In this document: one piece after another, positions 4,363 through 36,834 of the stretch
Numbering within the stretch: position 1 is the stretch's first letter
How the letters are laid out: each line of letters begins with the position of its first letter
Source: a virus
Taxonomy: Duplodnaviria > Heunggongvirae > Uroviricota > Caudoviricetes
DNA length: 37,780 nt
Direction: 5' to 3' (one strand)
Virus record (IMG/VR): IMGVR_UViG_2541047682_000004
The notes under the pieces: generated by a model
Told to the model about the DNA's origin: nothing
Database searches by the model: none
What the model saw: the letters and a program-made list of their open reading frames with translations, nothing else
Program-made: the position numbers and the translations under genes

Positions 4363-4927
4363 TATCGCGTCCTCAACAATGAATTTTGTGATGCGGTGCC
4401 TGGTGCTTCCAGGTGACGTTAACCAGTTAACAATTAACGCCGGATACAGAGAATCCACCCATAACACTGTTTTTGGTTTTAACTGTTCCGCGTGCGCTTA
4501 GCCGCATTCACCGCATCACAAAATTCACTTTAAAAAGGGCGGCAGAGCAGTCACGGAGTAAAACTGATACCGCCAAACGTCACCAGAAAATTGATAACAG
4601 AGGGCGTTGCAGCGGGGTTGTCACTTAAGCGTATGGTCAACCTGACAACCCGGTGTCCTCAACGGTGGAAGGAATAACCCCGCCATACTTACCGCCGCGC
4701 CATTTCGCGGATTGCCACAACCGGAAGCGCACGGTCGACGAAAATTTAACGACAGGCTATCTATGAACCAGCTACCTCGCCGTGCGCTTTCGCGTTATGG
4801 TCTGACTTTTCAGGGAAATATCCTTTCAGTAAACTGTCAGTGCCGGATGCTCACCCGTGTCCGGCGCACGCACTCCACCTCACCCGTGGAGAACTCCTTA
4901 ATTACCAACCTTAGCTTCGTTGGTTAG

Positions 4928-5756: not shown

Positions 5757-6395
5757 TTAAATATTTTGTTGAATTTTAAAGCATACGCCCAATATGCAAG
5801 ATAGATCATCCAGCATAATTGAAGGGTAGCGAGGATTCGTGGGGACTAAAAGAATATCCGGCCCTTCTATCTCCAGTTTACGAATGACAGGTGTTGTGGT
5901 CCCTTTGGGTAAGGCAAGGACAATATTTCCTGGTTGTACGGTTCGATCGGGATCAACAAAAACTGTTGAACCATTTGGGATGGAAACTCCCCCACCAGAT
6001 GTTGACATACTGTCACTCTCTAGAACAACTGCAAAGGTATTGGCCGGGATTTCTCCGACAAGCTGCACACAAGAGGTTATTGAGGAATTTTTCATATAAT
6101 CACTCCAGCTTGCTGCCTGCTGAAGTGATAGTAGCGGAACCGTTTTTATCGGCGGTAAAGATAGATCAAGCGAATCACCTGTATTTAACTCTCCTCCATT
6201 AAGAAGCCAATTTTCGTTTACTTTCAATATTTTTGCCAGTGAACTTATGTAACGCGAGGACGGCGCTCCTCCACCGTTCATCCATTGACTTACGGAGCCT
6301 TTTGATGCGCCAGTGGCATTGACAAGGTCTTTGCCTTTCAGGTTTAGCGCATGCATACGTTGGGTTATGCGTTCAGATATTGTTTGCTTGTTCAT
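5757..6395 (-). CDS. CI-like prophage repressor (N-terminal XRE HTH, C-terminal S24 LexA-like autopeptidase)
   Basis: 212 aa; HTH segment LKGKDLVNATGASKGSVSQWMNG; C-terminal S24-like region (GNIVLALP...VIRKLEIEG); divergent from the cro-like gene. Confidence 0.85.
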   Translation of the reverse strand: MNKQTISERITQRMHALNLKGKDLVNATGASKGSVSQWMNGGGAPSSRYISSLAKILKVNENWLLNGGELNTGDSLDLSLPPIKTVPLLSLQQAASWSDYMKNSSITSCVQLVGEIPANTFAVVLESDSMSTSGGGVSIPNGSTVFVDPDRTVQPGNIVLALPKGTTTPVIRKLEIEGPDILLVPTNPRYPSIMLDDLSCILGVCFKIQQNI

Positions 6396-8320: not shown

Positions 8321-8743
8321 GTGGCAAAAGTTTTTACACAAGAAGAGCGGGAAAAAATTAAAGGACAGGTTGTTGAACTCGTACGCCAGAGTGGGCGTGA
8401 GACGTTACGGCAACTGGAAGTCAAGACAGGTGCGACAAGATATCTGATGAGCGTTCTCGCAAGAGAGCTGGTTGCCAGCGGCGATGTATGCAACTCTGGT
8501 TACGGGTTATTCCCGTCTGAACAGGCGCGTAAGGACTGGCAAAATGCCAGTAAAAAGCTCTCAAGGGCAAAGCTGAAGAAACCATCTGCGGTTGATCCGG
8601 ACCTTATCTGGTCATTACCTGACGGAGAAATACGTCGCTACGACAGGCGTCAGAACATAATCTGTCGCGAGTGCCGGAAGAGTGAAGTTATGCAGCGCAT
8701 ATTGTCGTTTTATCAGGGTGATGTTCGGTATTTATTGAAGTGA
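8321..8743 (+). CDS. hypothetical protein (140 aa)
   Basis: GTG start with AGGAGG RBS 4 nt upstream; typical GC content. Confidence 0.5.
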   Translation: MAKVFTQEEREKIKGQVVELVRQSGRETLRQLEVKTGATRYLMSVLARELVASGDVCNSGYGLFPSEQARKDWQNASKKLSRAKLKKPSAVDPDLIWSLPDGEIRRYDRRQNIICRECRKSEVMQRILSFYQGDVRYLLK

Positions 8744-11339: not shown

Positions 11340-11531
11340 CGGGAGTTAAGTAGAATTGCTGCGGGTGCTTGAGGCTATCTGCCTCAGGCATGAACACCAA
11401 AGGCAGATAGAGAAAAGCCCCAGTTAATATTACGCGTCCTGCAAGACGCTTAACATTAATCTGAGGCTCAATCTATGAACGGCAAATCTAGGTTAGCCTC
11501 TTACGTGCCGAAAGGCAAGGAGAAGCAGGCT
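11340..11531. promoter_or_regulatory. hok mRNA leader with stem-loops; expected location of the antisense sok-like RNA
   Basis: hairpin CTGAGGCTATCTGCCTCAG at about 11369-11390 and repeated TGAGGC before the hok start; by analogy with the hok/sok organisation. Confidence 0.4.
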
Positions 11532-11687
11532 ATGAAGCAGCAAAAGGCGATGTTAATCGCCCTGATCGTCATCTGTTTAACCGTCATAGTGACGGCACTG
11601 GTAACGAGGAAAGACCTCTGCGAGGTACGAATCCGAACCGGCCAGACGGAGGTCGCTGTCTTCACAGTTTACGAACCTGAGGAGTAA
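11532..11687 (+). CDS. hokD: Hok/Gef-family type I toxin (HokD/RelF-like)
   Basis: 51-aa product MKQQKAMLIALIVICLTVIVTALVTRKDLCEVRIRTGQTEVAVFTVYEPEE, near-identical to my recollection of E. coli HokD; in-frame upstream extension from 11475. Confidence 0.85.
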   Translation: MKQQKAMLIALIVICLTVIVTALVTRKDLCEVRIRTGQTEVAVFTVYEPEE

Positions 11688-16057: not shown

Positions 16058-16133
16058 GGCCCTTTAGCTCAGTGGTGAGAGCGAGCGACTCATAATCGCC
16101 AGGTCGCTGGTTCAAATCCAGCAAGGGCCACCA
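16058..16133 (+). tRNA. ileZ: tRNA-Ile2 (anticodon CAT, ileX/ileZ-like) or tRNA-Met
   Basis: 76-nt cloverleaf folded by hand: 7-bp acceptor GGCCCTT/AAGGGCC, anticodon loop CTCATAA, T-loop TTCAAAT, encoded CCA; resembles E. coli ileX. Confidence 0.85.
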
Positions 16134-16140
16134 TCACATA

Positions 16141-16217
16141 CCGCCATTAGCTCATCAGGAAAGAGCGCCAGCCTTCGAAGCTGGTTGCGCGGAGTTCGGG
16201 TCCCCGAAGGCGGTCCA
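16141..16217 (+). tRNA. tRNA-like gene, possibly tRNA-Arg (anticodon TCG by position); degenerate
   Basis: cloverleaf possible with anticodon stem CCAGC/GCTGG and loop CTTCGAA, but acceptor and T-stem each have a mismatch and the T-loop is non-canonical (TTCGGGT); may be a pseudogene. Confidence 0.4.
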
Positions 16218-16230
16218 TTATCTGTATCCT

Positions 16231-16307
16231 GCGTTGTTAGCTCAGCCGGACAGAGCAATTGCCTTCTAAGCAATCGGTCACTGGTTCGAATCCAGTACAA
16301 CGCGCCA
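16231..16307 (+). tRNA. argO: tRNA-Arg (anticodon TCT, argU/argO-like)
   Basis: 77 nt; perfect 7-bp acceptor GCGTTGT/ACAACGC, anticodon loop CTTCTAA, T-loop TTCGAAT, encoded CCA. Confidence 0.85.
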
Positions 16308-16412
16308 CACTTATTTTCCCTGGCTCGCTTTTGCGGGCTTTTTTTTAAATGTCTCACAATTCAGGCGGTTGACTGTTGTCTGGTTTGCGGGGAGTTTGTT
16401 AAAAGAAACTGG

Positions 16413-16566
16413 CATGGTGAATCCCCCTGTGCGGAGGGGCAATCAGCGAGTAGGTATATGGGATAATCGCGGATTCAGGTGCTGGTACTGAATTCACCGG
16501 GAGGCACCCGGCACCATGCAATGGCACATAGCGCCACTCTCCAGCCCCTCTCCGGAGGGGCTTTTC
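16413..16566 (+). ncRNA. candidate structured small RNA, unit 1
   Basis: conserved 5' box CATGGTGAATCCCCCTGNGCGGAGGGGC, internal CACCGGGAGGCACCCGGCACCATG (complementary to the 5' CATGGTG), ends in GCCCCTC-TCCG-GAGGGGC plus T-run; upstream TTGACT and TGTTAAAAG. Confidence 0.3.
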
Positions 16567-16756
16567 TGTGCCGGATACATCACAGTTTCTGGAACCTTAG
16601 GTACTACAGTATCAGTCAGGGTGCTATATTTTCAGATGTGATGAAAGCCTGTCAGCAGGCAGGGCGTATCGGAAATGACCCAGTAGAGAAAACGTTGACT
16701 CAGATACCGGTGCTGAGTTACCGGGAAACCGGCATCACATGACCGCTATCCTTCCA

Positions 16757-16786
16757 GGCCCATCCGCTCCGGTGGGCCTTTTTACT
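16757..16786 (+). terminator. intrinsic terminator
   Basis: GGCCCATCCG-CTCC-GGTGGGCC hairpin followed by TTTTT. Confidence 0.55.
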
Positions 16787-16880
16787 GCAGAAAACAGGTT
16801 CCCCGTTAAATGCTATGTTGCTCACAATTCAGTAAGTTGACAGTTGCCTGTCAGACTGGGCATTTGTTAAAAAAATTTCG

Positions 16881-17053
16881 CATGGTGAATCCCCCTGAGC
16901 GGAGGGGCGACTGGTGACGGTATAATCTCTGATTATCAAAACGAGAATGACGCGGGTTTAGTGGCACCGGGCTGAACTCACCGGGAGGCACCCGGCACCA
17001 TGTGCATGATGATACAGATACGCGGCTTTAGCCCCTCTCCGGAGGGGTTTTCT
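16881..17053 (+). ncRNA. candidate structured small RNA, unit 2 (paralog of unit 1)
   Basis: same conserved 5' box, internal CACCGGGAGGCACCCGGCACCATG and terminal CCCCTC-TCCG-GAGGGG terminator, with a divergent middle; upstream CTCACAATTCAG..GTTGACA..TTTGTTAAAA as in unit 1. Confidence 0.3.
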
Positions 17054-17282
17054 TGTGGGCAAAAAAAGCCCGCGCTGGGAGACGCGGGCGGCAAGGAATA
17101 AACAATAAAACGTGAAGTAATATTTCAGCTGGCGAATAATACCCCATAGTAATCACTCTGCGCAACTGCGCGGTCTTTTTCGAATTGCGGGCTGTCGTCT
17201 CTCTTCTGCCATTGTCCTGTAACTTCCGGACTTCAGCCCGCTCCTTATTTTACTCACAATATTATCCCGGCCGGGAGGATTC

Positions 17283-17778: not shown

Positions 17779-17994
17779 ATGGACCAGATGGAAAAAATCA
17801 CAACAGGTGTGTCATACACCACGTCAGCGGTGGGAACGGGCTACTGGTTCCTGCAGTTGCTGGACAGGGTTTCCCCGTCTCAGTGGGCGGCAATAGGCGT
17901 GCTGGGGAGTCTGCTGTTTGGGCTGCTGACATATCTGACTAACCTGTATTTCAAAATCAGAGAGGACCGTCGTAAGGCGGCACGGGGAGAGTAA
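17779..17994 (+). CDS. S: phage-21-type pinholin S21 (dual-start holin/antiholin)
   Basis: [71 protein letters not shown] closely matches my recollection of S21; dual start M1/M4; GGGAGACGGGG RBS. Confidence 0.85.
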
Positions 17995-17998
17995 TTCA

Positions 17999-18343
17999 AT
18001 GACTCAAAACTATGAACTGATTGTGAAAGGGATCCGCAATTTTGAGAATAAAGTTACGGTAACTTTAGCATTACAGGACAAAGAACGCTTTGACGGTGAA
18101 ATTTTTGACCTGGACATCTCGCTGGACCGTGTTGAAGGTGCTGCGCTGGAGTTTTATGAGGCAGCGGCCAGAAGGAGCATCAGACAGGTCTTCCTGGATG
18201 TCGCTGCCGGGTTATGTGAAGGGGATGAGCAGTCGCCGGAAAAGCGCCCCGTAATTTTAGAGGCGCAGAATGTATGGATAACCTACAAAGGAAAGCTACC
18301 GGGAAGGATTACTGGTTCCCTGAAGACTCCGCCGAAATGGTAG
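17999..18343 (+). CDS. hypothetical protein inserted between holin and endolysin (YdfR-like position)
   Basis: 114-aa ORF starting 5 nt after the holin stop. Confidence 0.5.
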   Translation: MTQNYELIVKGIRNFENKVTVTLALQDKERFDGEIFDLDISLDRVEGAALEFYEAAARRSIRQVFLDVAAGLCEGDEQSPEKRPVILEAQNVWITYKGKLPGRITGSLKTPPKW

Positions 18344-18581
18344 TTTTGCCAGCATAATTTTCTTCCAGCAATGCCGCCAGCCACTTGAAAGAATTTTGTT
18401 GTTCCTGGGACCATTTGGGGTTGCGTGATTCAAAATGAATGGATGCCAGCGTTGGCAGCATTTGCTCCCTGGGAATTGATAAGGCCAGATGTGAAAATGC
18501 AACAGTGAGGGCATTTACATCATCCCGAAGCCTGGAAATGCAGTCGAGCAACTCCTGTAGAGAAATGGTGCTATTGTCCAT
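18309..18581 (-). CDS. hypothetical protein, convergent with the preceding ORF (35-nt 3' overlap)
   Basis: 90-aa ORF with AAGAGGA RBS about 8 nt upstream; unremarkable composition. Confidence 0.3.
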   Translation of the reverse strand: MDNSTISLQELLDCISRLRDDVNALTVAFSHLALSIPREQMLPTLASIHFESRNPKWSQEQQNSFKWLAALLEENYAGKTTISAESSGNQ

Positions 18582-18686: not shown

Positions 18687-19221
18687 ATGAACGCAAAAAT
18701 CAAATACGGCCTGTCAGCTGCAGTTCTGGCGCTGATTGGAGCAGGCGCATCAGCTCCTCAGATACTTGACCAGTTTCTGGATGAAAAAGAGGGTAACCAC
18801 ACTACGGCATACCGCGATGGTTCCGGCAACTGGACCATCTGTCGGGGGGGCCACGATGGTGGATGGAAAACCCGTTTTTCCCGGTATGAAACTGTCGAAG
18901 GAAAAATGCGACCAGGTCAACGCCATTGAGCGTGATAAGGCGCTGGCATGGGTGGAGAAAAACATCAAAGTGCCATTGAGCGAACCCCAGAAAGCGGGGA
19001 TCGCGTCATTCTGTCCGTACAACATTGGTCCCGGTAAGTGTTTCCCGTCGACGTTTTATAAACGAATTAATGCAGGTGATCGCAGGGGAGCGTGTGAGGC
19101 GATTCGCTGGTGGATTAAGGACGGTGGCAGAGACTGCCGTATTCGTTCAAACAACTGCTACGGTCAGGTATCCCGTCGTGACCAGGAGAGCGCGCTGGCG
19201 TGCTGGGGTATCGACAGATAA
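18687..19221 (+). pseudogene. R: SAR endolysin (lysozyme-like), interrupted by a frameshift in a G7 homopolymer at 18844-18850
   Basis: N-terminal SAR segment (LSAAVLALIGAGASA) and E...D...T catalytic context in frame 1 (ORF 18687..18929); rest of the lysozyme domain in ORF 18736..19221; removing one G restores a 177-aa product. Confidence 0.7.
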
Positions 19222-19380
19222 GCAGAATATTTTGCTGAAAAATAAGGCATGGCCACGCGGGCGGATAACATGAAATCCTGCGAAGTGGCGAAACGTAAGT
19301 GAATAAAAGTAAAAACCCCGTTTGTTGGCACCAAGCGGGGTTTTGTGTTTCCTGACTCCGGAAAAGTCAAAGGAGAAAGT

Positions 19381-19519: not shown

Positions 19520-19984
19520 ATGAACCGCGTACTGTGCGTGGTCATCATTGCCCTGCTGGTGGCCTGTGGTGCGCTTAGTCTGGGGCTGAATCATTACCGT
19601 GATAACGCCATTACCTACAAAGCCCAGCGCGACAAAAATGTCAGAGAACTGAAGCTGGCGAACGCGGCAATTACTGACATGCAGATGCGTCAGCGTGATG
19701 TTGCTGCGCTCGATGCAAAATACACGAAGGAGTTAGCTGATGCGAAAGCTGAAAATGATGCTCTGCGTGATGATGTTGCCGCTGGTCGTCGTCGGTTGCA
19801 CATCAAAGCAGTCTGTCAGTCAGTGCGTGAAGCCACCACCGCCTCCGGCGTGGATAATGCAGCCTCCCCCCGACTGGCAGACACCGCTGAACGGGATTAT
19901 TTCACCCTCAGAGCGCGACTGATAATAATGCAAAAACAACTTGAAGGGGCACAGCTATACATTCGAGAGCAATGCCTCAGATAA
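19520..19984 (+). CDS. Rz: Rz inner-membrane spanin (i-spanin)
   Basis: 154 aa; N-terminal TM helix then coiled-coil; close match to lambda Rz ([17 protein letters not shown]...). Confidence 0.85.
19740..19922 (+). CDS. Rz1: Rz1 outer-membrane lipoprotein spanin (o-spanin), embedded in Rz in the +1 frame
   Basis: 60 aa; lipobox LVVVGC; proline-rich; near-identical to lambda Rz1. Confidence 0.8.
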
Positions 19985-20702: not shown

Positions 20703-20759
20703 TGTAGTACCTTCCATGTGATATGAGGGGGGGTAGTCTGCACGATTATCTAAATTGCT

Positions 20760-21928: not shown

Positions 21929-23828
21929 TGCAGCCGGTGCGATAGCTACAGGGCTTTTATCTCTCATTATTCCTGTTCCACTGACGACAGTTCAGTGGGC
22001 CAATAAACATTATTACCTTCCTAAAGAGTCGTCTTATACCCCGGGGCGGTGGGAAACACTGCCGTTTCAGGTTGGCATCATGAACTGTATGGGCAACGAT
22101 TTGATTCGCACTGTTAACCTGATTAAATCTGCCCGTGTTGGTTATACAAAGATGTTGCTGGGAGTGGAGGCTTATTTTATTGAGCATAAATCACGCAACA
22201 GCCTTCTTTTTCAGCCCACGGACTCAGCTGCTGAAGATTTTATGAAATCTCATGTTGAGCCAACGATAAGGGATGTTCCTGCATTGCTGGAGCTGGCTCC
22301 ATGGTTCGGAAGAAAACACCGCGATAATACGCTCACCCTGAAGCGTTTTTCCTCCGGTGTGGGTTTCTGGTGTCTGGGGGGAGCGGCAGCAAAAAACTAC
22401 CGTGAAAAATCCGTGGATGTGGTTTGTTATGACGAGCTTTCCTCGTTCGAACCGGATGTTGAAAAAGAGGGTTCGCCAACCCTGCTGGGGGATAAACGTA
22501 TTGAGGGCTCTGTATGGCCAAAATCCATTCGCGGCTCGACGCCTAAAATCAAAGGCTCCTGCCAGATCGAAAAAGCCGCTAACGAGTCGGCACATTTCAT
22601 GCGTTTTTATGTGCCCTGTCCGCACTGTGGGGAGGAGCAGTATCTGAAATTTGGCGATGATGCCTCGCCTTTCGGTCTTAAGTGGGAGAAGAATAAGCCA
22701 GAAAGTGTTTTCTACCTTTGTGAGCATCATGGCTGTGTGATCCATCAGTCTGAGCTTGACCAGAGTAACGGGCGGTGGATCTGTGAAAACACGGGCATGT
22801 GGACCCGTGACGGCCTGACATTTTTCAGCGCCCGGGGTGATGAAATTCCGCCGCCGCGCTCCATCACTTTCCATATCTGGACGGCGTACAGTCCGTTCAC
22901 CACCTGGGTACAGATTGTCTATGACTGGCTGGATGCACTGAAAGATCCCAACGGCCTGAAAACCTTTGTGAACACCACGCTGGGCGAGACCTGGGAAGAG
23001 GCTGTGGGCGAAAAACTCGATCACCAGGTGCTGATGGATAAGGTTGTGCGTTACACGGCGGCGGTGCCTGCCCGGGTGGTTTATCTGACGGCGGGCATTG
23101 ACTCGCAGCGAAACCGTTTTGAGATGTATGTCTGGGGATGGGCTCCGGGAGAGGAAGCCTTTCTGGTGGATAAAATCATCATTATGGGGCGTCCCGATGA
23201 GGAAGAGACGCTGTTACGTGTGGATGCGGCGATCAACAAAAAATACCGCCATGCAGACGGAACCGAAATGACCATTTCCCGTGTCTGCTGGGACACCGGG
23301 GGGATCGATGGCGAAATCGTCTATCAGAGGTCAAAAAAACACGGTGTTTTCCGGGTGCTGCCGGTAAAAGGTGCATCTGTTTATGGCAAGCCGGTGATCA
23401 CCATGCCAAAAACCCGCAATCAGCGGGGCGTGTATCTGTGCGAAGTGGGGACGGACACCGCAAAAGAAATTCTCTATGCCCGTATGAAAGCCGATCCCAC
23501 GCCTGCGGATGAAGCCACGTCGTATGCCATCCGTTTTCCTGATGATCCGGAGATTTTTTCGCAGACAGAGGCGCAGCAACTGGTGGCGGAAGAGCTTGTG
23601 GAGAAGTGGGAAAAAGGAAAGATGCGTCTGCTGTGGGATAACAAAAAGCGGCGTAACGAAGCGCTGGACTGCCTGGTGTATGCCTACGCGGCATTACGTG
23701 TGTCCGTGCAACGCTGGCAGCTTGATCTGGCTGTACTGGCAAAATCCCGGGAAGAAGAGACGACCCGGCCAACCCTTAAAGAACTGGCAGCGAAGCTGTC
23801 CGGAGGAGTGAATGGTTACAGTCGCTGA
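21900..23828 (+). CDS. A: terminase large subunit (lambda gpA)
   Basis: about 640 aa; extensive similarity to lambda A ([42 protein letters not shown]); overlaps nu1 end. Confidence 0.9.
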
Positions 23829-25607: not shown

Positions 25608-27102
25608 TCTTTCACACATTATTGCAGCAGCATTCAATGAACCGCTGCTTCTGGAGCCCGCCTATGCGCGGGTTTTCTTTTGCGCGCTGGGGCGCGAGAT
25701 GGGGGCAGCAAGTCTTTCGGTACCGCAACAGCAGGTACAGCTTGATGCTCCCGGGATGCTGGCTGAAACGGACGAGTACATGGCCGGAGGTAAACGACCG
25801 GCCCGTGTTTACCGGGTGGTGAACGGTATTGCGGTACTGCCGGTGACCGGCACGCTGGTGCACCGGCTGGGGGGGATGCGGCCATTTTCCGGAATGACTG
25901 GCTATGACGGCATTGTCGCCTGTCTTCAGCAGGCAATGGCAGATAGCCAGGTGCGGGGCATACTGCTGGACATTGACAGTCCGGGCGGGCAGGCCGCCGG
26001 CGCGTTTGACTGCGCTGACATGATTTACCGCCTCCGGCAGCAGAAGCCGGTCTGGGCACTGTGTAATGACACGGCCTGTTCTGCGGCCATGCTGCTGGCG
26101 TCGGCCTGCTCCCGACGGCTGGTTACCCAGACATCCCGTATCGGTTCCATTGGCGTGATGATGAGCCATGTCAGCTATGCCGGTCATCTGGCGCAGGCCG
26201 GTGTGGATATCACGCTGATTTACTCAGGGGCGCACAAGGTGGATGGCAATCAGTTTGAAGCGTTGCCGGCAGAGGTTCGCCAGGACATGCAGCAGCGGAT
26301 TGATGCGGCGCGCCGGATGTTTGCCGAAAAAGTGGCGATGTATACCGGTCTGTCTGTTGATGCAGTCACGGGAACAGAGGCCGCTGTTTTTGAAGGTCAG
26401 TCCGGCATTGAGGCCGGGCTGGCGGATGAATTAATCAATGCGTCGGATGCCATCAGTGTGATGGCCACGGCGCTGAACAGTAATGTCAGAGGAGGCACTA
26501 TGCCGCAATTAACTGCAACGGAAGCCGCCGTGCAGGAGAACCAGCGAGTGATGGGGATCCTGACATGCCAGGAAGCGAAAGGACGTGAACAGCTTGCCAC
26601 GATGCTGGCAGGGCAACAGGGCATGAGCGTTGAACAGGCCCGGGCGATTCTGGCCGCGGCGGCACCGCAGCAGCCGGTGGCATCCGCGCAGAGTGAAGCC
26701 GATCGCATTATGGCGTGTGAAGAAGCGAACGGTCGTGAACAACTGGCGGCAACGCTGGCGGCGATGCCGGAGATGACGGTGGAAAAAGCCCGCCCGATCC
26801 TGGCGGCTGCACCACTGGCGGATGCCGGGCCCTCGCTTCGTGATCAGATCATGGCCCTGGATGAGGCAAAAGGGGCAGAAGCGCAGGCTGAAAAACTGGC
26901 GGCCTGCCCGGGAATGACCGTGGAGAACGCCCGGGCTGTGCTGGCTGCGGGATCAGGTAAGGCCGAACCGGTCTCTGCATCCACAACCGCCCTGTTTGAA
27001 CATTTCATGGCGAATCATTCACCGGCAGCGGTGCGGGGTGGCGTGTCACAGACGTCAGCAGACGGTGATGCGGACGTGAAAATGCTCATGGCCATGCCAT
27101 GA
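25597..27102 (+). CDS. C: head maturation protease / scaffold (lambda gpC with nested Nu3-like C-terminal region)
   Basis: 501 aa; S49/ClpP-like protease region similar to lambda C; C-terminal third has three tandem copies of an approximately 35-aa motif (I/VMxxxEAxG..Q..A.LA...GMTVE.AR.ILAA). Confidence 0.85.
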   Translation: MRRNLSHIIAAAFNEPLLLEPAYARVFFCALGREMGAASLSVPQQQVQLDAPGMLAETDEYMAGGKRPARVYRVVNGIAVLPVTGTLVHRLGGMRPFSGMTGYDGIVACLQQAMADSQVRGILLDIDSPGGQAAGAFDCADMIYRLRQQKPVWALCNDTACSAAMLLASACSRRLVTQTSRIGSIGVMMSHVSYAGHLAQAGVDITLIYSGAHKVDGNQFEALPAEVRQDMQQRIDAARRMFAEKVAMYTGLSVDAVTGTEAAVFEGQSGIEAGLADELINASDAISVMATALNSNVRGGTMPQLTATEAAVQENQRVMGILTCQEAKGREQLATMLAGQQGMSVEQARAILAAAAPQQPVASAQSEADRIMACEEANGREQLAATLAAMPEMTVEKARPILAAAPLADAGPSLRDQIMALDEAKGAEAQAEKLAACPGMTVENARAVLAAGSGKAEPVSASTTALFEHFMANHSPAAVRGGVSQTSADGDADVKMLMAMP

Positions 27103-31067: not shown

Positions 31068-31499
31068 ATGTTTCTGAAAACAGAACAATTTGAATATAAC
31101 GGTGTGTCTGTCACGCTTTCCGAATTGTCTGCGCTGCAGCGTATCGAGCATCTTGCCCTCCTGAAACGGCGTGCAGAACAGGCAGAATCCTGCGGCAACC
31201 TGCAGGTAAGCGTGGAAGATCTCGTCAGAACCGGCGCGTTTCTGGTGGCGATGTCCCTGTGGCATAACCATCCACAGAAAACGCAGTCACCGTCAATGAA
31301 TGAGGCCGTGATGAAGATAGAGCAGGAAGTGCTCACCACCTGGCCTGCCGATGCCATTGCCCGGGCGGAAGACGTGGTGTTGTGCCTGTCCGGGATGATC
31401 GAAGCTGTTCGTCCGGATACTGATATTACTGAAGTGGCGAAAAATAACACGCTGACTGATGATGATTTTTCTGCGGGAAAGTCTTCGACGGCGAGCTGA
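31068..31499 (+). CDS. G: tail assembly chaperone G
   Basis: 143 aa; lambda G-like; slippery heptamer near its 3' end. Confidence 0.8.
   Translation: MFLKTEQFEYNGVSVTLSELSALQRIEHLALLKRRAEQAESCGNLQVSVEDLVRTGAFLVAMSLWHNHPQKTQSPSMNEAVMKIEQEVLTTWPADAIARAEDVVLCLSGMIEAVRPDTDITEVAKNNTLTDDDFSAGKSSTAS
31475..31481 (+). promoter_or_regulatory. programmed -1 ribosomal frameshift site (G GGA AAG) producing the G-T fusion
   Basis: heptamer GGGAAAG in the G frame; downstream T ORF is in the -1 frame. Confidence 0.7.
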
Positions 31500-31525
31500 A
31501 CTTTGCCCTCAGACTGGCGCGTGAG

Positions 31526-31939
31526 ATGGGGAGACCCGACTGGCGCGCCATGCTTGCCGGGATGACATCCACCGAATATGCCGACTGGCACCGTTTTTAC
31601 CGCACGCATTATTTTCAGGATACCCAGCTGGATATGCATTTTTCCGGGCTGACGTACGCTGTACTCAGCCTGTTTTTTTGCGATCCGGATATGCATCCCT
31701 CTGATTTCAGTCTGCTTGTCCCCCGGCATGAGGAAGAGCAGGTGGAGAGGCCGGATGAGGACAAAATGCTGATGCAGAAAGCGGCAGGACTTGCCGGAGG
31801 CGTCCGGTTCGGTGGGGACGGAGGGCGCGATATTTTATCGTCTGCGGATGTGGCGGATGTCATGGTGGATGATGCCGCATTAATGATGGCTTCAGCGGGG
31901 ATTCCGGGAGGTGTGAGATATGTCCCAGCCGGTTGGTGA
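31526..31939 (+). CDS. T: tail assembly protein T (made as a G-T frameshift fusion)
   Basis: ORF in the -1 frame relative to G, contiguous with the slippery site; lambda T-like. Confidence 0.75.
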   Translation: MGRPDWRAMLAGMTSTEYADWHRFYRTHYFQDTQLDMHFSGLTYAVLSLFFCDPDMHPSDFSLLVPRHEEEQVERPDEDKMLMQKAAGLAGGVRFGGDGGRDILSSADVADVMVDDAALMMASAGIPGGVRYVPAGW

Positions 31940-34493
31940 TCTTGTTATTGACCTGAGTCTGGATGCTGTCCGTTTCGATGAGCAGATGAGCCGGGTAAGG
32001 CGTCATTTTTCAGGTCTGGATACCGACGCCAGAAAAACCGCCAGTGCTGTTGAACAGGGCCTGAGCCGCCAGGCGCTGGCTGCACAAAAAGCCGGGATTT
32101 CCGTCGGGCAGTATAAAGCGGCCATGCGAACCCTGCCCGCACAGTTTACGGATATCGCCACGCAGCTTGCCGGTGGTCAGAATCCCTGGTTGATCCTGCT
32201 GCAACAGGGCGGTCAGGTGAAGGACTCCTTCGGCGGGATGATCCCCATGTTCAGGGGGCTTGCCGGTGCGATCACCCTGCCGATGGTCGGGGTCACCTCG
32301 CTGGCGGTGGCGACAGGTGCGCTGGCGTACGCCTGGTACCAGGGCGACGCCACGCTTTCAGAATTTAATAAAACGCTGGTCCTTTCCGGCAATCAGGCCG
32401 GACTGACTGCCGATCGTATGCTGACGCTCTCAAGAGCCGGGCAGGCAGCAGGGCTGACGTTTAACCAGGCGAGAGAGTCACTGGCAGCCCTGGTGAATGC
32501 CGGTGTGCGTGGTGGTGAACAGTTTGATGCCATCAACCAGAGTGTCGCGCGTTTTGCGTCTGCATCCGGTGTGGAGGTGGATAAAGTCGCTGAAGCCTTC
32601 GGGAAGCTGACCACTGACCCGACGTCGGGACTGATGGCGATGGCGCGCCAGTTCCGTAACGTGACGGCAGAGCAGATTGCGTATGTTGCACAGCTGCAGC
32701 GTTCCGGAGACGAGGCCGGGGCATTGCAGGCGGCGAACGATATCGCCACGAAAGGCTTTGATGAGCAGACCCGTCGCCTGAAAGAAAACATGGGAACACT
32801 GGAGACCTGGGCGGATAAAACAGGGAAGGCATTCAAATCGATGTGGGATGCCATTCTGGATATCGGTCGTCCGGAATCCTCAGCGGATATGCTCGCCAGT
32901 GCGCAGAAGGCATTTGATGAGGCGGATAAAAAATGGCAGTGGTACCAGAGCCGGAGCCAGCGCCGGGGAAAGACCTCCTCTTTTCGTGCGAACCTTCAGG
33001 GGGCATGGGATGACCGGGAAAATGCCCGTCTGGGTCTGGCAGCGGCCACGCTGCAGTCGGATATGGAAAAAGCCGGTGAACTGGCGGCAAGGGACAGGGC
33101 TGAGCGTGAGTCGTCACAGCTGAAGTATACCGGAGAGGCGCAGAAGGCGTATGAGCGCCTGCAGACGCCGCTGGATAAATATACCGCCCGTCAGAAAGAG
33201 CTGAATAAGGCCCTGAAAGACGGAAAAATCCTGCAGGCGGATTACAACACGCTGATGGCGTCGGCAAAAAAGGATTATGAATCGACGCTGAAAAAGCCGT
33301 CAGGTGTGAAGGTGTCTGCCGGTGAGCGCCAGGAAGACCGGGCGCATGCAGCCCTGCTGGCGCTTGAAACCGAGCTCAGGACGCTGGAAAAACACAGCGG
33401 TGTGAATGAGAAAATCAGCCAGCAGCGCCGGGATTTATGGGAAGCGGAAAGTCAGTATGTGGTCCTGAAAGAGGCCGCCACGAAACGGCAGTTATCTGAG
33501 CAGGAAAAATCCCTGCTGGCTCATGAGAAAGAGACGCTGGAGTACAAACGCCAGCTGGCTGAGCTGGGAGACAAGATTGAACACCAGAAGCGGCTGAATG
33601 AGCTGGCACAGCAGGCGGCGCGGTTTGAACAGCAGCAAAGCGCGAAGCAGGCGGCAATCAGCGCAAAAGCCCGCGGCCTCACCGACCGTCAGGCGCAGCG
33701 GGAGTCGGAAGAGCAGCGCCTTCGTGAGGTGTACGGTGATAATCCGGCTGCGCTGGCGAAGGCCACATCGGCACTGAAGAACACCTGGTCTGCGGAGGAG
33801 CAGCTTCGTGGAAGCTGGATGGCCGGGATGAAGTCCGGCTGGGGAGAGTGGGCGGAAAGTGCGACGGACAGTTTTTCGCAGGTTAAAAGTGTGGCCACGC
33901 AGACCTTTGACGGTATTGCACAGAATATGGCGGCGATGCTGACCGGCAGCGAACAGAACTGGCGGGGATTCACCCGTTCCGTGCTGTCCATGATGACAGA
34001 AATTCTGCTTAAGCAGGCAATGGTGGGGATTGTCGGGAGTATCGGCAGCGCCATTGGCGGGGCTGTTGGTGGCGGCGCATCCGCGTCAGGCGGTACAGCC
34101 ATTCAGGCCGCCGCGGCGAAATTCCATTTTGCAACCGGAGGATTTACGGGAACCGGCGGCAAATATGAGCCAGCGGGGATTGTTCACCGTGGTGAATTTG
34201 TCTTCACAAAGGAGGCAACCAGCCGGATTGGCGTGGGGAATCTCTATCGGCTGATGCGCGGCTATGCCACCGGTGGTTATGTCGGTACACCGGGCAGTCT
34301 GGCTGACAGCCGGTCGCAGGCGTCCGGGACGTTTGAGCAGAATAACCATGTGGTGATTAACAACGACGGCACGAACGGGCAGATAGGTCCGGCTGCTCTG
34401 AAGGCGGTGTATGACATGGCCCGCAAGGGTGCCCGTGATGAAATTCAGACACAGATGCGTGATGGTGGACTGTTCTCCGGAGGTGGACGATGA
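31920..34493 (+). CDS. H: tail tape measure protein H
   Basis: 857 aa; near-colinear with lambda H (N-terminal PVGDLVIDLSLDAVRFDEQM, C-terminal GLFSGGGR). Confidence 0.9.
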   Translation: MSQPVGDLVIDLSLDAVRFDEQMSRVRRHFSGLDTDARKTASAVEQGLSRQALAAQKAGISVGQYKAAMRTLPAQFTDIATQLAGGQNPWLILLQQGGQVKDSFGGMIPMFRGLAGAITLPMVGVTSLAVATGALAYAWYQGDATLSEFNKTLVLSGNQAGLTADRMLTLSRAGQAAGLTFNQARESLAALVNAGVRGGEQFDAINQSVARFASASGVEVDKVAEAFGKLTTDPTSGLMAMARQFRNVTAEQIAYVAQLQRSGDEAGALQAANDIATKGFDEQTRRLKENMGTLETWADKTGKAFKSMWDAILDIGRPESSADMLASAQKAFDEADKKWQWYQSRSQRRGKTSSFRANLQGAWDDRENARLGLAAATLQSDMEKAGELAARDRAERESSQLKYTGEAQKAYERLQTPLDKYTARQKELNKALKDGKILQADYNTLMASAKKDYESTLKKPSGVKVSAGERQEDRAHAALLALETELRTLEKHSGVNEKISQQRRDLWEAESQYVVLKEAATKRQLSEQEKSLLAHEKETLEYKRQLAELGDKIEHQKRLNELAQQAARFEQQQSAKQAAISAKARGLTDRQAQRESEEQRLREVYGDNPAALAKATSALKNTWSAEEQLRGSWMAGMKSGWGEWAESATDSFSQVKSVATQTFDGIAQNMAAMLTGSEQNWRGFTRSVLSMMTEILLKQAMVGIVGSIGSAIGGAVGGGASASGGTAIQAAAAKFHFATGGFTGTGGKYEPAGIVHRGEFVFTKEATSRIGVGNLYRLMRGYATGGYVGTPGSLADSRSQASGTFEQNNHVVINNDGTNGQIGPAALKAVYDMARKGARDEIQTQMRDGGLFSGGGR

Positions 34494-34819
34494 AAACCTT
34501 CCGCTGGAAAGTGAAACCCGGGATGGATGTGACATCGGCTCCTTCCGTCAGGGAGGTGCGCTTTGGTGATGGCTATTCCCAGCGTGCGCCTGCCGGGCTG
34601 AACGCTGACCTGAAAACGTACAGCGTGACGCTGTCTGTCTCCCGTGAGGAGGCCACGGCGCTGGAGTCGTTTCTGGCTGAGCACGGGGGCTGGAAGGCCT
34701 TTCTGTGGACGCCGCCTTATGGTTACAGGCAGATAAAGGTGACCTGCGCAAAATGGTCGTCGCAGGTCAGTATGTTGCGTGTTGGGTTCAGCGCAGAGTT
34801 TAAACAGGTGGTGAACTGA
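34490..34819 (+). CDS. M: minor tail protein M
   Basis: 109 aa; lambda M-like. Confidence 0.85.
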   Translation: MKTFRWKVKPGMDVTSAPSVREVRFGDGYSQRAPAGLNADLKTYSVTLSVSREEATALESFLAEHGGWKAFLWTPPYGYRQIKVTCAKWSSQVSMLRVGFSAEFKQVVN

Positions 34820-36265: not shown

Positions 36266-36834
36266 AAACGGGGGCTGAAGCCATCCGCGCACTGGCCACA
36301 CAGCTCCCGGTGTTTCGTCAGAAACTGAGCGACGGCTGGTATCAGGTACGGATTGCCGGGCGGGACGTCAGCACGTCCGGGTTAACGGCGCAGTTACATG
36401 AGACTCTGCCTGATGGCGCTGTGATTCATATTGTTCCCAGAGTCGCCGGGGCCAAGTCAGGTGGCGTATTCCAGATTGTCCTGGGGGCTGCCGCCATTGC
36501 CGGATCATTCTTTACCGCCGGAGCCACCCTTGCAGCATGGGGGGCAGCCATTGGGGCCGGTGGTATGACCGGCATCCTGTTTTCTCTCGGTGCCAGTATG
36601 GTGCTCGGTGGTGTGGCGCAGATGCTGGCACCGAAAGCCAGAACTCCCCGTACACAGACAACGGATAACGGCAAACAGAACACCTATTTCTCCTCACTGG
36701 ATAACATGGTTGCCCAGGGCAATGTCCTGCCTGTTCTGTACGGTGAAATGCGCGTGGGGTCACGTGTGGCATCTCAGGAGATCAGCACGGCAGATGAAGG
36801 GGATGGTGGTCAGGTTGTGGTAATTGGGCGGTAA
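36163..36834 (+). CDS. I: tail assembly protein I
   Basis: 223 aa; ubiquitin-like N-terminus and Gly/Ala-rich hydrophobic C-terminus as in lambda I; overlaps K. Confidence 0.85.
   Translation: MAATHTLPLASPGMARICLYGDLQRFGRRIDLRVKTGAEAIRALATQLPVFRQKLSDGWYQVRIAGRDVSTSGLTAQLHETLPDGAVIHIVPRVAGAKSGGVFQIVLGAAAIAGSFFTAGATLAAWGAAIGAGGMTGILFSLGASMVLGGVAQMLAPKARTPRTQTTDNGKQNTYFSSLDNMVAQGNVLPVLYGEMRVGSRVASQEISTADEGDGGQVVVIGR

What the first reader, a model, noticed from the sequence alone, without database searches (positions are those of the whole stretch)
18687..19221. SAR endolysin split by a +1 frameshift in a G7 homopolymer
The endolysin N-terminus (SAR segment and catalytic E/D/T context) and the rest of the lysozyme domain lie in two overlapping frames that meet at GGGGGGG (18844-18850). 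Deleting one G gives a contiguous 177-aa endolysin. This is either a sequencing or assembly error, an inactivating mutation that traps the prophage, or a slippage-prone tract acting as a switch on lysis competence.
Basis: seen in the sequence. Interest (0 to 1): 0.45.

Follow-up and report, generated by a model that had tools for sequence, protein, structure and literature searches.

The report
Frameshifted prophage endolysin pseudogene in E. coli
One extra G in a run of Gs has broken the cell-wall-cutting (lysis) gene of a resident virus in one branch of the E. coli ST95 lineage; it is a real, inherited mutation already flagged as a pseudogene in public annotations, so it is ordinary.

Summary
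GGGGGGG sits at 18844-18850. An 80-aa ORF (18687-18929) and the +1 frame running to 19221 together encode one lysozyme. Deleting one G gives a 177-aa protein (Pfam Phage_lysozyme, 4e-24) that aligns end to end with the phage 21 SAR endolysin R21.

It is not a sequencing error. The window is a lambdoid prophage at ompW of E. coli ST95-type strains. The same G7 allele occurs in 34 complete genomes, including ATCC 11775, S88 and APEC O1, and PGAP marks it "lysozyme, frameshifted" in all 11 G7 records opened. The same prophage at the same site in UTI89, IHE3034 and at least 60 other records has G6 and an intact gene.

It does not behave as a switch:
- Only G6 (107 records) and G7 (34) exist; G5 and G8 have none.
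- All 32 records carrying a derived linked SNP are G7, so there are no revertants.
- Most homologues interrupt the run with synonymous changes.

Best reading: a replication-slippage insertion, arisen once or at most twice, that knocks out the endolysin of an otherwise open-reading prophage. It is one of several independent decay lesions seen in this prophage. The lysis-defective phenotype is inferred, not tested. Low interest; already known.

The parts
18687..19221 (+). Whole endolysin pseudogene (rrrQ-type lysozyme; 535 nt instead of 534)
   Evidence: 100% identical over 535 nt to loci that PGAP annotates as 'lysozyme, frameshifted' in ATCC 11775, S88, APEC O1 and others. The G6 version equals WP_000992052.1 in UTI89, IHE3034 and SCU-123.
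18687..18929 (+). 5' fragment ORF, 80 aa: 54 native residues (basic N-terminus, Gly/Ala-rich membrane segment about 7-25, E35/D44/T50) plus 26 out-of-frame residues, then TGA
   Evidence: This exact 80-aa sequence is on 185 contigs in the public protein collection.
18844..18850 (+). G7 homopolymer, the site of the one-base insertion (ancestral G6 = codons CGG GGG GCC, R53 G54 A55)
   Evidence: Counts with identical flanks in 5,426 E. coli genomes: G7 34 records, G6 107, G8 0, G5 0.
18850..19221 (+). 3' part of the lysozyme domain (A55-R177) in the +1 frame; an internal ATG at 18856 would give a 121-aa fragment lacking the export segment and catalytic residues
   Evidence: The 121-aa fragment is called as a protein on 304 contigs.
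17779..17994 (+). Intact class II holin of the phage 21 S family (candidate pinholin partner), 71 aa
   Evidence: Pfam PF04971 'Bacteriophage P21 holin S', 9e-33. ORF is open.
17999..18343 (+). YdfR/DUF1327 gene lying between holin and endolysin
   Evidence: Pfam PF07041, 6.9e-44.
18309..18581 (-). Antisense 90-aa hypothetical ORF between holin and endolysin
   Evidence: Annotated as WP_001351274.1 in related genomes. No Pfam hit.
19520..19984 (+). Intact Rz (i-spanin), 154 aa
   Evidence: Pfam PF03245, 1.4e-52.
19740..19922 (+). Intact Rz1 (o-spanin lipoprotein) embedded in Rz, 60 aa
   Evidence: Pfam PF06085, 5.4e-20.
8549..8549 (+). Derived SNP (A) in the DUF977 gene, linked to the G7 allele
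   Evidence: A in all 9 G7 sequences of the main clade and C in all 8 G6 sequences compared. The exact A-allele 76-mer is in 32 records, and all 32 are G7 records.

Best explanation
The feature is a true, vertically inherited pseudogene.

Origin. In a lambdoid prophage integrated next to ompW in E. coli ST95-type strains, a G6 run in the endolysin gene (codons R53-G54-A55) gained one G. The most likely cause is slipped-strand mispairing during replication.

Effect on the protein. Translation now gives 54 native residues followed by 26 missense residues and a stop. The native part holds the signal-anchor-release (SAR) membrane segment and the E35/D44/T50 catalytic residues. The remaining 123 codons of the lysozyme fold are left out of frame. 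No active muramidase should be made.

Inferred phenotype. The partner holin is of the phage 21 S family and Rz/Rz1 are intact. An induced cell would therefore be killed by holin triggering but would not lyse, and virions would stay inside unless another prophage supplies an endolysin.

History. The insertion happened once, or at most twice, in a sub-lineage that includes ATCC 11775, S88, APEC O1 and O1/O2:K1:H7 avian strains. It has been stably inherited since. It is one of several independent degradative lesions that this prophage has collected in different ST95 lineages.

Shown: the insertion, its inheritance, the loss of the reading frame, and the identity of the gene. Inferred: the slippage mechanism and the lysis-defective phenotype.
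For: 1. Anatomy.
2. Gene identity: the repaired protein aligns over residues 9-174 with the full-length phage 21 endolysin 3HDE (3.4e-16) and with RrrD 4ZPU. E35/D44/T50 are conserved. The N-terminal segment is 58% G/A/S/T and has no Cys before C52.
3. Same prophage with and without the extra G: the window is 99.898% identical over 36,365 nt with no gap to ATCC 11775 (G7). It is 99.879% identical with a single gap, the G, to SCU-123 (G6, intact WP_000992052.1).
4. Reproducibility: 34 complete genomes carry G7, including older reference genomes such as APEC O1 and S88. The four UTI89 chromosome records all read G6 at the same coordinates. The exact 80-aa product is on 185 contigs.
5. Clonal inheritance: in 50-kb alignments, G7 co-segregates with a chromosomal SNP in kch, in 8 G7 genomes against 7 G6 genomes. 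It also co-segregates with a prophage SNP in DUF977, in 9 G7 sequences including the window against 8 G6 sequences. Database-wide, all 32 records with the derived DUF977 allele are G7.
6. PGAP calls the gene 'frameshifted' in all 11 G7 records opened.
7. Decay context in the same prophage:
- terL frameshift in S88 and MS7163.
- IS1 insertion in SF-173.
- IS3 insertion upstream of the endolysin in E12053.
- IS3 in the holin plus an IS1-associated deletion in AHB12.
- Shortened M gene in ATCC 11775.
Against: No phenotype was measured. Low-level +1 slippage on G GGG GGG could still make a trace of full-length enzyme. Many G7 genomes hold 1-3 further homologous lysozyme genes that might complement in trans ('places in record' 2-4).

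All other 48 mapped prophage genes in the window are open. The prophage is therefore not obviously dead, and the lesion could be recent relative to the rest.

Two G7 genomes (19AR1321 and 19AR0253) carry the ancestral alleles at both linked SNPs. A second independent insertion, or a recombinational transfer, cannot be excluded.
Confidence: 0.9

Rival explanations
1. Sequencing or assembly error: the real genome has G6 and an intact endolysin.
For: Homopolymer length errors are common. In the same alignments, private single-genome differences occur at other runs: PU-1 at the G7 run equivalent to window 20727-20733, and APEC O1 and ST95-32 at a T run.
Against: The G7 allele is identical in 34 complete genomes from many laboratories and dates. 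It co-segregates with two linked SNPs. The exact truncated product is on 185 contigs from NCBI, ENA, JGI and Logan assemblies. An error would not follow a lineage.
Confidence: 0.01
2. Phase-variable contingency tract: the G run switches between G6 and G7 at high frequency and toggles the lysis competence of the prophage.
For: A G6/G7 run is intrinsically more mutable than non-repetitive sequence, and both states exist within ST95. Two G7 genomes lack the linked derived SNPs, which could mean a second G6-to-G7 event.
Against: - Only two lengths exist: G5 0, G6 107, G7 34, G8 0 records.
- There are 0 of 32 revertants in the clade marked by the derived DUF977 SNP.
- G7 is perfectly congruent with a chromosomal SNP 23.7 kb away in 8 versus 7 genomes.
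- The tract is not conserved. Among 120 IMG/VR loci the six bases are GGGGTG in 76, GGGGGG in 28, GAGGGG in 11 and GTGGTG in 5, all six bases long.
- The four UTI89 chromosome records all read G6, although they share identical length and coordinates and may be the same sequence redeposited.
Confidence: 0.03
3. Recoding: a programmed +1 ribosomal frameshift, or RNA polymerase slippage on the G7 run, restores a useful amount of full-length endolysin, so the gene is functional as written.
For: A tRNA-Gly slip from GGG (18846-18848) to GGG (18847-18849) would put GCC next and recreate exactly the wild-type C-R-G-A-T sequence (read). The downstream frame is undamaged in all 30 genomes listed at 100% identity.
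Against: - No canonical +1 signals: the 0-frame codon after the run is the common GGC rather than a stop or rare codon, the 0 frame runs on for 26 codons, and there is no Shine-Dalgarno-like stimulator upstream (read).
- The prophage itself carries a tRNA-Arg(TCG) able to read the preceding rare CGG.
- Every homologue outside this clade is a single ORF, so the arrangement is not conserved.
- The undamaged downstream frame carries no weight, because the whole 47 kb compared has only two clade-specific SNPs.
- A genuine programmed frameshift is present in the same window for contrast: the lambda G/GT site GGGAAAG at 31475.
Confidence: 0.04

Closest known systems
Phage 21 SAR endolysin R21 (PDB 3HDE/3HDF) with pinholin S21
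   Same: - GH24 / Phage_lysozyme fold.
- Alignment covers the N-terminal Gly/Ala-rich segment as well as the catalytic domain.
- E35, D44 and T50 sit at the same positions.
- No Cys in the N-terminal segment, as in R21 and unlike the P1 Lyz type (the latter from my own knowledge).
- The upstream holin belongs to the phage 21 S family.
   Different: Here the gene is interrupted after codon 54. Two extra ORFs (YdfR/DUF1327 and an antisense ORF) lie between holin and endolysin. Relatedness to R21 is only moderate (phmmer E 3e-16).
RrrQ (Qin) and RrrD (DLP12, PDB 4ZPU), the cryptic-prophage lysozymes of E. coli K-12
   Same: PGAP names this locus rrrQ. The gene order holin - ydfR - lysozyme - Rz/Rz1 and the neighbours dicB, ydfA-D and hokD are Qin-like.
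   Different: The K-12 genes are intact ORFs in heavily deleted prophages. Here the ORF is frameshifted in a prophage in which every other gene checked in the window is open.
R endolysin of Stx-converting phages (for example Stx2-converting phage 86 'r', 534 nt)
   Same: Closest sequenced phage gene: 95.5% nucleotide identity over the full length, same 177-aa size.
   Different: The phage genes are intact. No phage record reaches 99% identity, so this prophage allele (G6 or G7) has not been deposited as a free phage in that collection.
Homopolymer-indel pseudogenes of decaying prophages
   Same: Same kind of lesion as the A7-to-A6 terL frameshift of S88 and MS7163 in this very prophage.
   Different: Nothing substantive. 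This is the category it belongs to.
Poly-G contingency loci of Neisseria, Haemophilus and Campylobacter
   Same: A coding G run whose length sets the reading frame.
   Different: The run is shorter. Its length is stable within the marked clade, it is not conserved in homologues, and only two states are seen.

Membership tests
Phage 21-type SAR endolysin (GH24, Pfam PF00959) | Phage_lysozyme (GH24) catalytic domain | tested here: met
   The repaired 177-aa sequence scores 85.7 bits (cut-off 22.3), E 4.1e-24, over residues 33-167.
Phage 21-type SAR endolysin (GH24, Pfam PF00959) | Catalytic triad E-x8-D-x5-T | tested here: met
   E35, D44 and T50 are present, and the surrounding EG...D...WT block aligns with the 3HDE sequence. 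That these are R21's catalytic residues is from my own knowledge.
Phage 21-type SAR endolysin (GH24, Pfam PF00959) | N-terminal weakly hydrophobic, Gly/Ala/Ser-rich, uncleaved membrane segment | tested here: met
   Residues 7-25 (YGLSAAVLALIGAGASAPQ) are 58% G/A/S/T, with a maximum 19-residue hydropathy of 1.67. R21 gives 63% and 2.11. The segment aligns with the R21 N-terminus. ASA is followed by Pro at +1, which by established knowledge blocks signal peptidase I. The evidence is composition and alignment only.
Phage 21-type SAR endolysin (GH24, Pfam PF00959) | Sec-dependent export and release from the membrane on depolarisation | not testable with these tools
   Needs fractionation and energy-poison experiments.
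Phage 21-type SAR endolysin (GH24, Pfam PF00959) | Partnered with a pinholin-type (S21 family) holin | tested here: met
   ORF 17779-17994 hits PF04971 'Bacteriophage P21 holin S' at 9e-33.
Phage 21-type SAR endolysin (GH24, Pfam PF00959) | One continuous ORF encoding the whole enzyme | tested here: not met
   The frame breaks after codon 54 at the G7 run. It is therefore filed as a pseudogene of this family, not a working member.
Phase-variable contingency locus | Tract length varies among close relatives, with several lengths and reversions | tested here: not met
   G5 0, G6 107, G7 34, G8 0 records. All 32 records with the derived linked SNP are G7.
Phase-variable contingency locus | Repeat tract conserved in homologues | tested here: not met
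   92 of 120 IMG/VR homologues interrupt the run with synonymous changes.
Phase-variable contingency locus | Length heterogeneity within one culture | not testable with these tools
   Needs reads or amplicon sequencing.
Programmed +1 ribosomal frameshift (prfB type) | Shift site followed by a 0-frame stop or hungry codon, with an upstream Shine-Dalgarno-like stimulator | tested here: not met
   The 0-frame reads CGG GGG GGC CAC and runs 26 codons further. There is no SD-like motif in the 25 nt upstream.
Programmed +1 ribosomal frameshift (prfB type) | Two-frame arrangement conserved across homologues | tested here: not met
   The 30 listed phage matches are 531-534 nt, which fits an uninterrupted gene. 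The 120 IMG/VR loci and the 107 G6 E. coli records all keep the six-base spacing.
Programmed +1 ribosomal frameshift (prfB type) | Full-length trans-frame protein is made | not testable with these tools
   Needs a reporter assay or proteomics.

The most novel reading that the evidence does not exclude
The G7 allele may be kept, not merely tolerated. One version is that loss of endolysin was selected in the O1/O2/O45:K1:H7 branch of ST95 as a step in domesticating the ompW prophage: the host keeps DicB/DicF, HokD, the methyltransferase and the tRNAs without releasing phage. The other version is that the allele is leaky, with rare +1 slippage on G GGG GGG giving trace enzyme and a delayed, partial lysis phenotype.
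Probability: 0.05. Interest if true: 0.35.

Novelty: already known. Interest (0 to 1): 0.08.

Why it matters
The practical value is small.
- The lesion is a clean, stable marker for a sub-lineage of the extraintestinal pathogenic clone ST95. That sub-lineage includes the E. coli type strain ATCC 11775.
- Prophage predictors that call this roughly 45-kb element "intact" should be read with care. In this window it lacks a working endolysin, and in sister lineages it carries other lesions.
- It is a tidy example of stepwise prophage decay by homopolymer indels and IS insertions.

It does not open a new question.

Tried and rejected
- Literature. Four full-text searches found no paper dealing with this locus or with induction of this prophage. 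The term sets were: ATCC 11775 / prophage / mitomycin; ST95 / prophage / ompW; UTI89 / prophage / induction / lambdoid; endolysin / frameshift / prophage / homopolymer.
- Placing the two odd G7 genomes (19AR1321 and 19AR0253):
  - Their 13-bp difference at the ompW-int junction is a copy-number change of a short tandem repeat. It also occurs in unrelated O121 and other strains, so it is homoplasious and uninformative.
  - A 5-kb search with their endolysin-to-terL segment gave a G6 genome (AHB12, 99.8%) as nearest neighbour, followed by main-clade G7 genomes (99.7%). The right arm is mosaic, so one versus two origins stays unresolved.
- Repressor. I considered that the CI-like repressor might be truncated, because PGAP annotates only 112 aa. 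In the window the ORF is open for 212 aa (5757-6395, minus strand), so this was rejected.
- Not run, because they would not change the verdict: structure prediction, the large protein searches and the metagenome scan.

Full report
**1. The observation**

The window reads TGTCGGGGGGGCCACG, with seven G at 18844-18850. An ATG-initiated ORF runs 18687-18929 (80 aa). A second open frame, +1 relative to the first, runs through the G run to a stop at 19221. Deleting one G gives a 534-nt, 177-aa ORF.

The repaired protein matches Pfam Phage_lysozyme (PF00959, 4.1e-24, residues 33-167). The 80-aa fragment alone matches nothing. Native sequence ends at G54. It is followed by 26 missense residues and a TGA.

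A G7 run is not remarkable by itself: 3 runs of G>=7 occur in the window against 3.8 expected from composition. What is beyond chance is that both frames belong to one protein family.

**2. What the gene is**

The repaired protein aligns over residues 9-174 with full-length phage 21 endolysin R21 (PDB 3HDE, 3.4e-16) and with RrrD of prophage DLP12 (4ZPU). The alignment includes the N-terminal segment.
- E35, D44 and T50 form the E-x8-D-x5-T motif.
- Residues 7-25 are 58% Gly/Ala/Ser/Thr and only moderately hydrophobic, like the R21 SAR segment.
- There is no Cys before C52.
- ASA is followed by Pro, which by established knowledge blocks signal peptidase I.

The surrounding cassette is complete:
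- a phage 21 S-family class II holin at 17779-17994 (PF04971, 9e-33);
- a YdfR/DUF1327 gene;
- an antisense 90-aa ORF;
- the endolysin;
- a 45-aa membrane ORF;
- Rz at 19520-19984 and the embedded Rz1 at 19740-19922.

**3. Where the window comes from**

The 535-nt segment is 100% identical to chromosomal loci in at least 30 complete E. coli genomes. These include the type strain ATCC 11775, S88, APEC O1, MS7163 and SF-468.

In ATCC 11775 the locus lies in a lambdoid prophage integrated next to ompW. PGAP annotates it "rrrQ, lysozyme, frameshifted". The window is 99.898% identical to that prophage over 36,365 nt without a gap.

No record in the phage collection reaches 99% identity. The best is Stx2-converting phage 86 'r' at 95.5%, an intact 534-nt gene.

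**4. Error, mutation or switch**

*The same prophage exists with and without the extra G.* SCU-123, UTI89, IHE3034, SF-166, MS8345, ST95-32 and others carry it at the same ompW site with G6 and an intact 177-aa lysozyme, WP_000992052.1. The window differs from the SCU-123 prophage by 43 substitutions and one gap over 36 kb, and that gap is the G.

*Tract lengths in 5,426 complete genomes.* Searching with 74-77-nt probes that differ only in tract length gave exact matches in 34 records for G7, 107 for G6, none for G8 and none for G5.

*Public protein collection.* The exact 80-aa product is on 185 contigs from NCBI, ENA, JGI and Logan. The intact protein is on at least 1,000 contigs.

A sequencing error is excluded for the lineage.

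**5. Inheritance**

I aligned 50-kb stretches running from purU through ompW and the prophage left arm to terL. The set comprised 8 G7 genomes plus the window, and 7 G6 genomes plus SCU-123.
- The extra G co-segregates perfectly with a chromosomal SNP in kch, 23.7 kb away and outside the prophage.
- It also co-segregates with a SNP in the prophage DUF977 gene (window 8549). There is no conflicting site.
- The DUF977 allele found with G7 is the derived one. Its exact 76-mer occurs in only 32 of 2,810 matching records, and all 32 are on the list of 34 G7 records. Within the marked clade there is not one revertant.

The two remaining G7 genomes, 19AR1321 and 19AR0253, are both from New Zealand. 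They share the same private features, so they form one lineage. They carry the ancestral allele at both linked sites. They are either basal to the clade or a second, independent insertion. Two attempts to decide this failed.

The G6 run is not conserved among homologues. In 120 IMG/VR loci the six bases are GGGGTG (76), GGGGGG (28), GAGGGG (11) or GTGGTG (5), and always six bases long.

Taken together, this is a rare insertion at a mildly mutable run that has been stably inherited. It is not a contingency switch.

**6. Recoding**

A +1 slip of tRNA-Gly within G GGG GGG would recreate the wild-type peptide, so trace read-through cannot be excluded. None of the usual signals is present, however:
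- The next 0-frame codon is the common GGC.
- The 0 frame continues for 26 codons.
- There is no upstream Shine-Dalgarno-like element.
- The two-frame arrangement is confined to this clade.

The undamaged downstream frame in the 30 genomes listed at 100% identity says nothing. The whole 47 kb compared has only two clade-specific substitutions, so there has been no time for decay.

For contrast, the window holds a genuine programmed frameshift. This is the lambda-type G/GT tail chaperone site GGGAAAG at 31475, with the T frame open from 31466.

**7. State of the prophage**

Mapping 48 annotated genes from ATCC 11775 onto the window shows every one open, from int and xis through Q, terS/terL, portal, capsid, tail tube, tape measure and genes L, K and I. 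The CI-like repressor ORF is open for 212 aa. In this window the endolysin is the only evident inactivating lesion, apart from two gene remnants that the G6 strains share.

Across ST95 the same prophage has collected other independent lesions:
- an A7-to-A6 frameshift in terL in S88 and MS7163;
- an IS1 insertion in SF-173;
- an IS3 insertion upstream of the endolysin in E12053;
- an IS3 in the holin plus an IS1-associated deletion of the immunity and replication region in AHB12;
- a shortened M gene in ATCC 11775.

The endolysin frameshift fits this pattern of piecemeal decay of a long-resident prophage.

**8. Mechanism and consequence**

Shown: a one-base insertion truncates the enzyme after residue 54.

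Inferred from established lysis biology of phage 21 and lambda (my own knowledge): the 80-aa product cannot form the lysozyme fold. With a pinholin-type holin, the SAR endolysin is indispensable. Induction would therefore stop respiration and kill the cell without lysis, leaving virions inside, unless an endolysin from another co-induced prophage complements. Several G7 genomes have 1-3 further homologues, whereas ATCC 11775 has none.

**9. Verdict**

The identification is correct.

The lesion is already marked as a frameshifted pseudogene in RefSeq, and it belongs to a thoroughly known gene family and a thoroughly known kind of decay. Interest is low.

Noticed in passing
window 31068-31939 (slippery site at 31475): Lambda-type tail assembly chaperone genes G and T carry the canonical -1 programmed frameshift heptamer GGGAAAG near the end of G. 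The T frame is open from 31466. This is a genuine recoding site in the same window.
   Followed up: partly
window 16058-16307 and 16383-17060: A prophage tRNA cluster with anticodons CAT (PGAP calls it tRNA-Ile), TCG (Arg) and TCT (Arg). It is followed by two copies of the sRNA family STnc100 (16383-16573 and 16851-17060). This is the Q-to-S region where Stx phages carry stx.
   Followed up: no
window 4537-4588 (-), 11363-11537 (+), 11532-11687 (+): DicF antisense RNA next to dicB, and a sok antitoxin RNA with hokD. These are Qin-like cargo of the prophage.
   Followed up: no
window 23333-23339 (A7 run in terL): S88 and MS7163, both G7 strains, have A6 here, and PGAP marks their terL as frameshifted. 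This is a second homopolymer knockout in the same prophage within a sub-lineage. The window itself has A7 and an open terL.
   Followed up: partly
window 20727-20733 and 25869-25875: Two more G7 runs. The first lies about 10 nt upstream of the start of the minus-strand DUF1398 gene and is G6 in strain PU-1 only (private change or error). The second lies in frame inside the S49 peptidase gene.
   Followed up: partly
window 5757-6395 (-): The CI-like repressor ORF is open for 212 aa in the window, and its C-terminal part is what PGAP calls a LexA family protein. PGAP annotates only the C-terminal 112 aa in all related genomes, so the annotated start is probably too far downstream.
   Followed up: partly
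window 36365-36603: A 30-nt length difference from ATCC 11775 and SCU-123 inside the Gly/Ala-rich part of the tail assembly protein I gene. The ORF stays open (201 aa).
   Followed up: partly
window 34490-34819: Tail gene M is full length (109 aa) in the window and SCU-123. It is annotated as only 270 nt in ATCC 11775.
   Followed up: no
window 19312-19344: A strong terminator-like hairpin (13 pairs followed by a T run) sits between the endolysin stop and the small membrane ORF and Rz, inside what should be one late transcript.
   Followed up: no
L005 26270-26300 (just left of the window, ompW-int junction): A short tandem repeat CTCTGCAAAAC(C) at the attachment junction varies in copy number: 3 copies in most ST95, 2 in 19AR1321 and 19AR0253 and in unrelated O121 strains.
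   Followed up: partly
NZ_CP082083.1 (strain MS20654), hits H224 and H264: The G7 endolysin (at about 0.58 Mb) and the DUF977 gene of the same prophage (at about 2.10 Mb) lie 1.5 Mb apart on opposite strands. This suggests a large inversion with a breakpoint inside the prophage.
   Followed up: no
L142 (NZ_OZ546967.1, isolate AHB12) 33733-44308: A G6 strain in which the same prophage has an IS3 inside the holin gene. It also has an IS1-associated deletion that removes the immunity and replication region.
   Followed up: no
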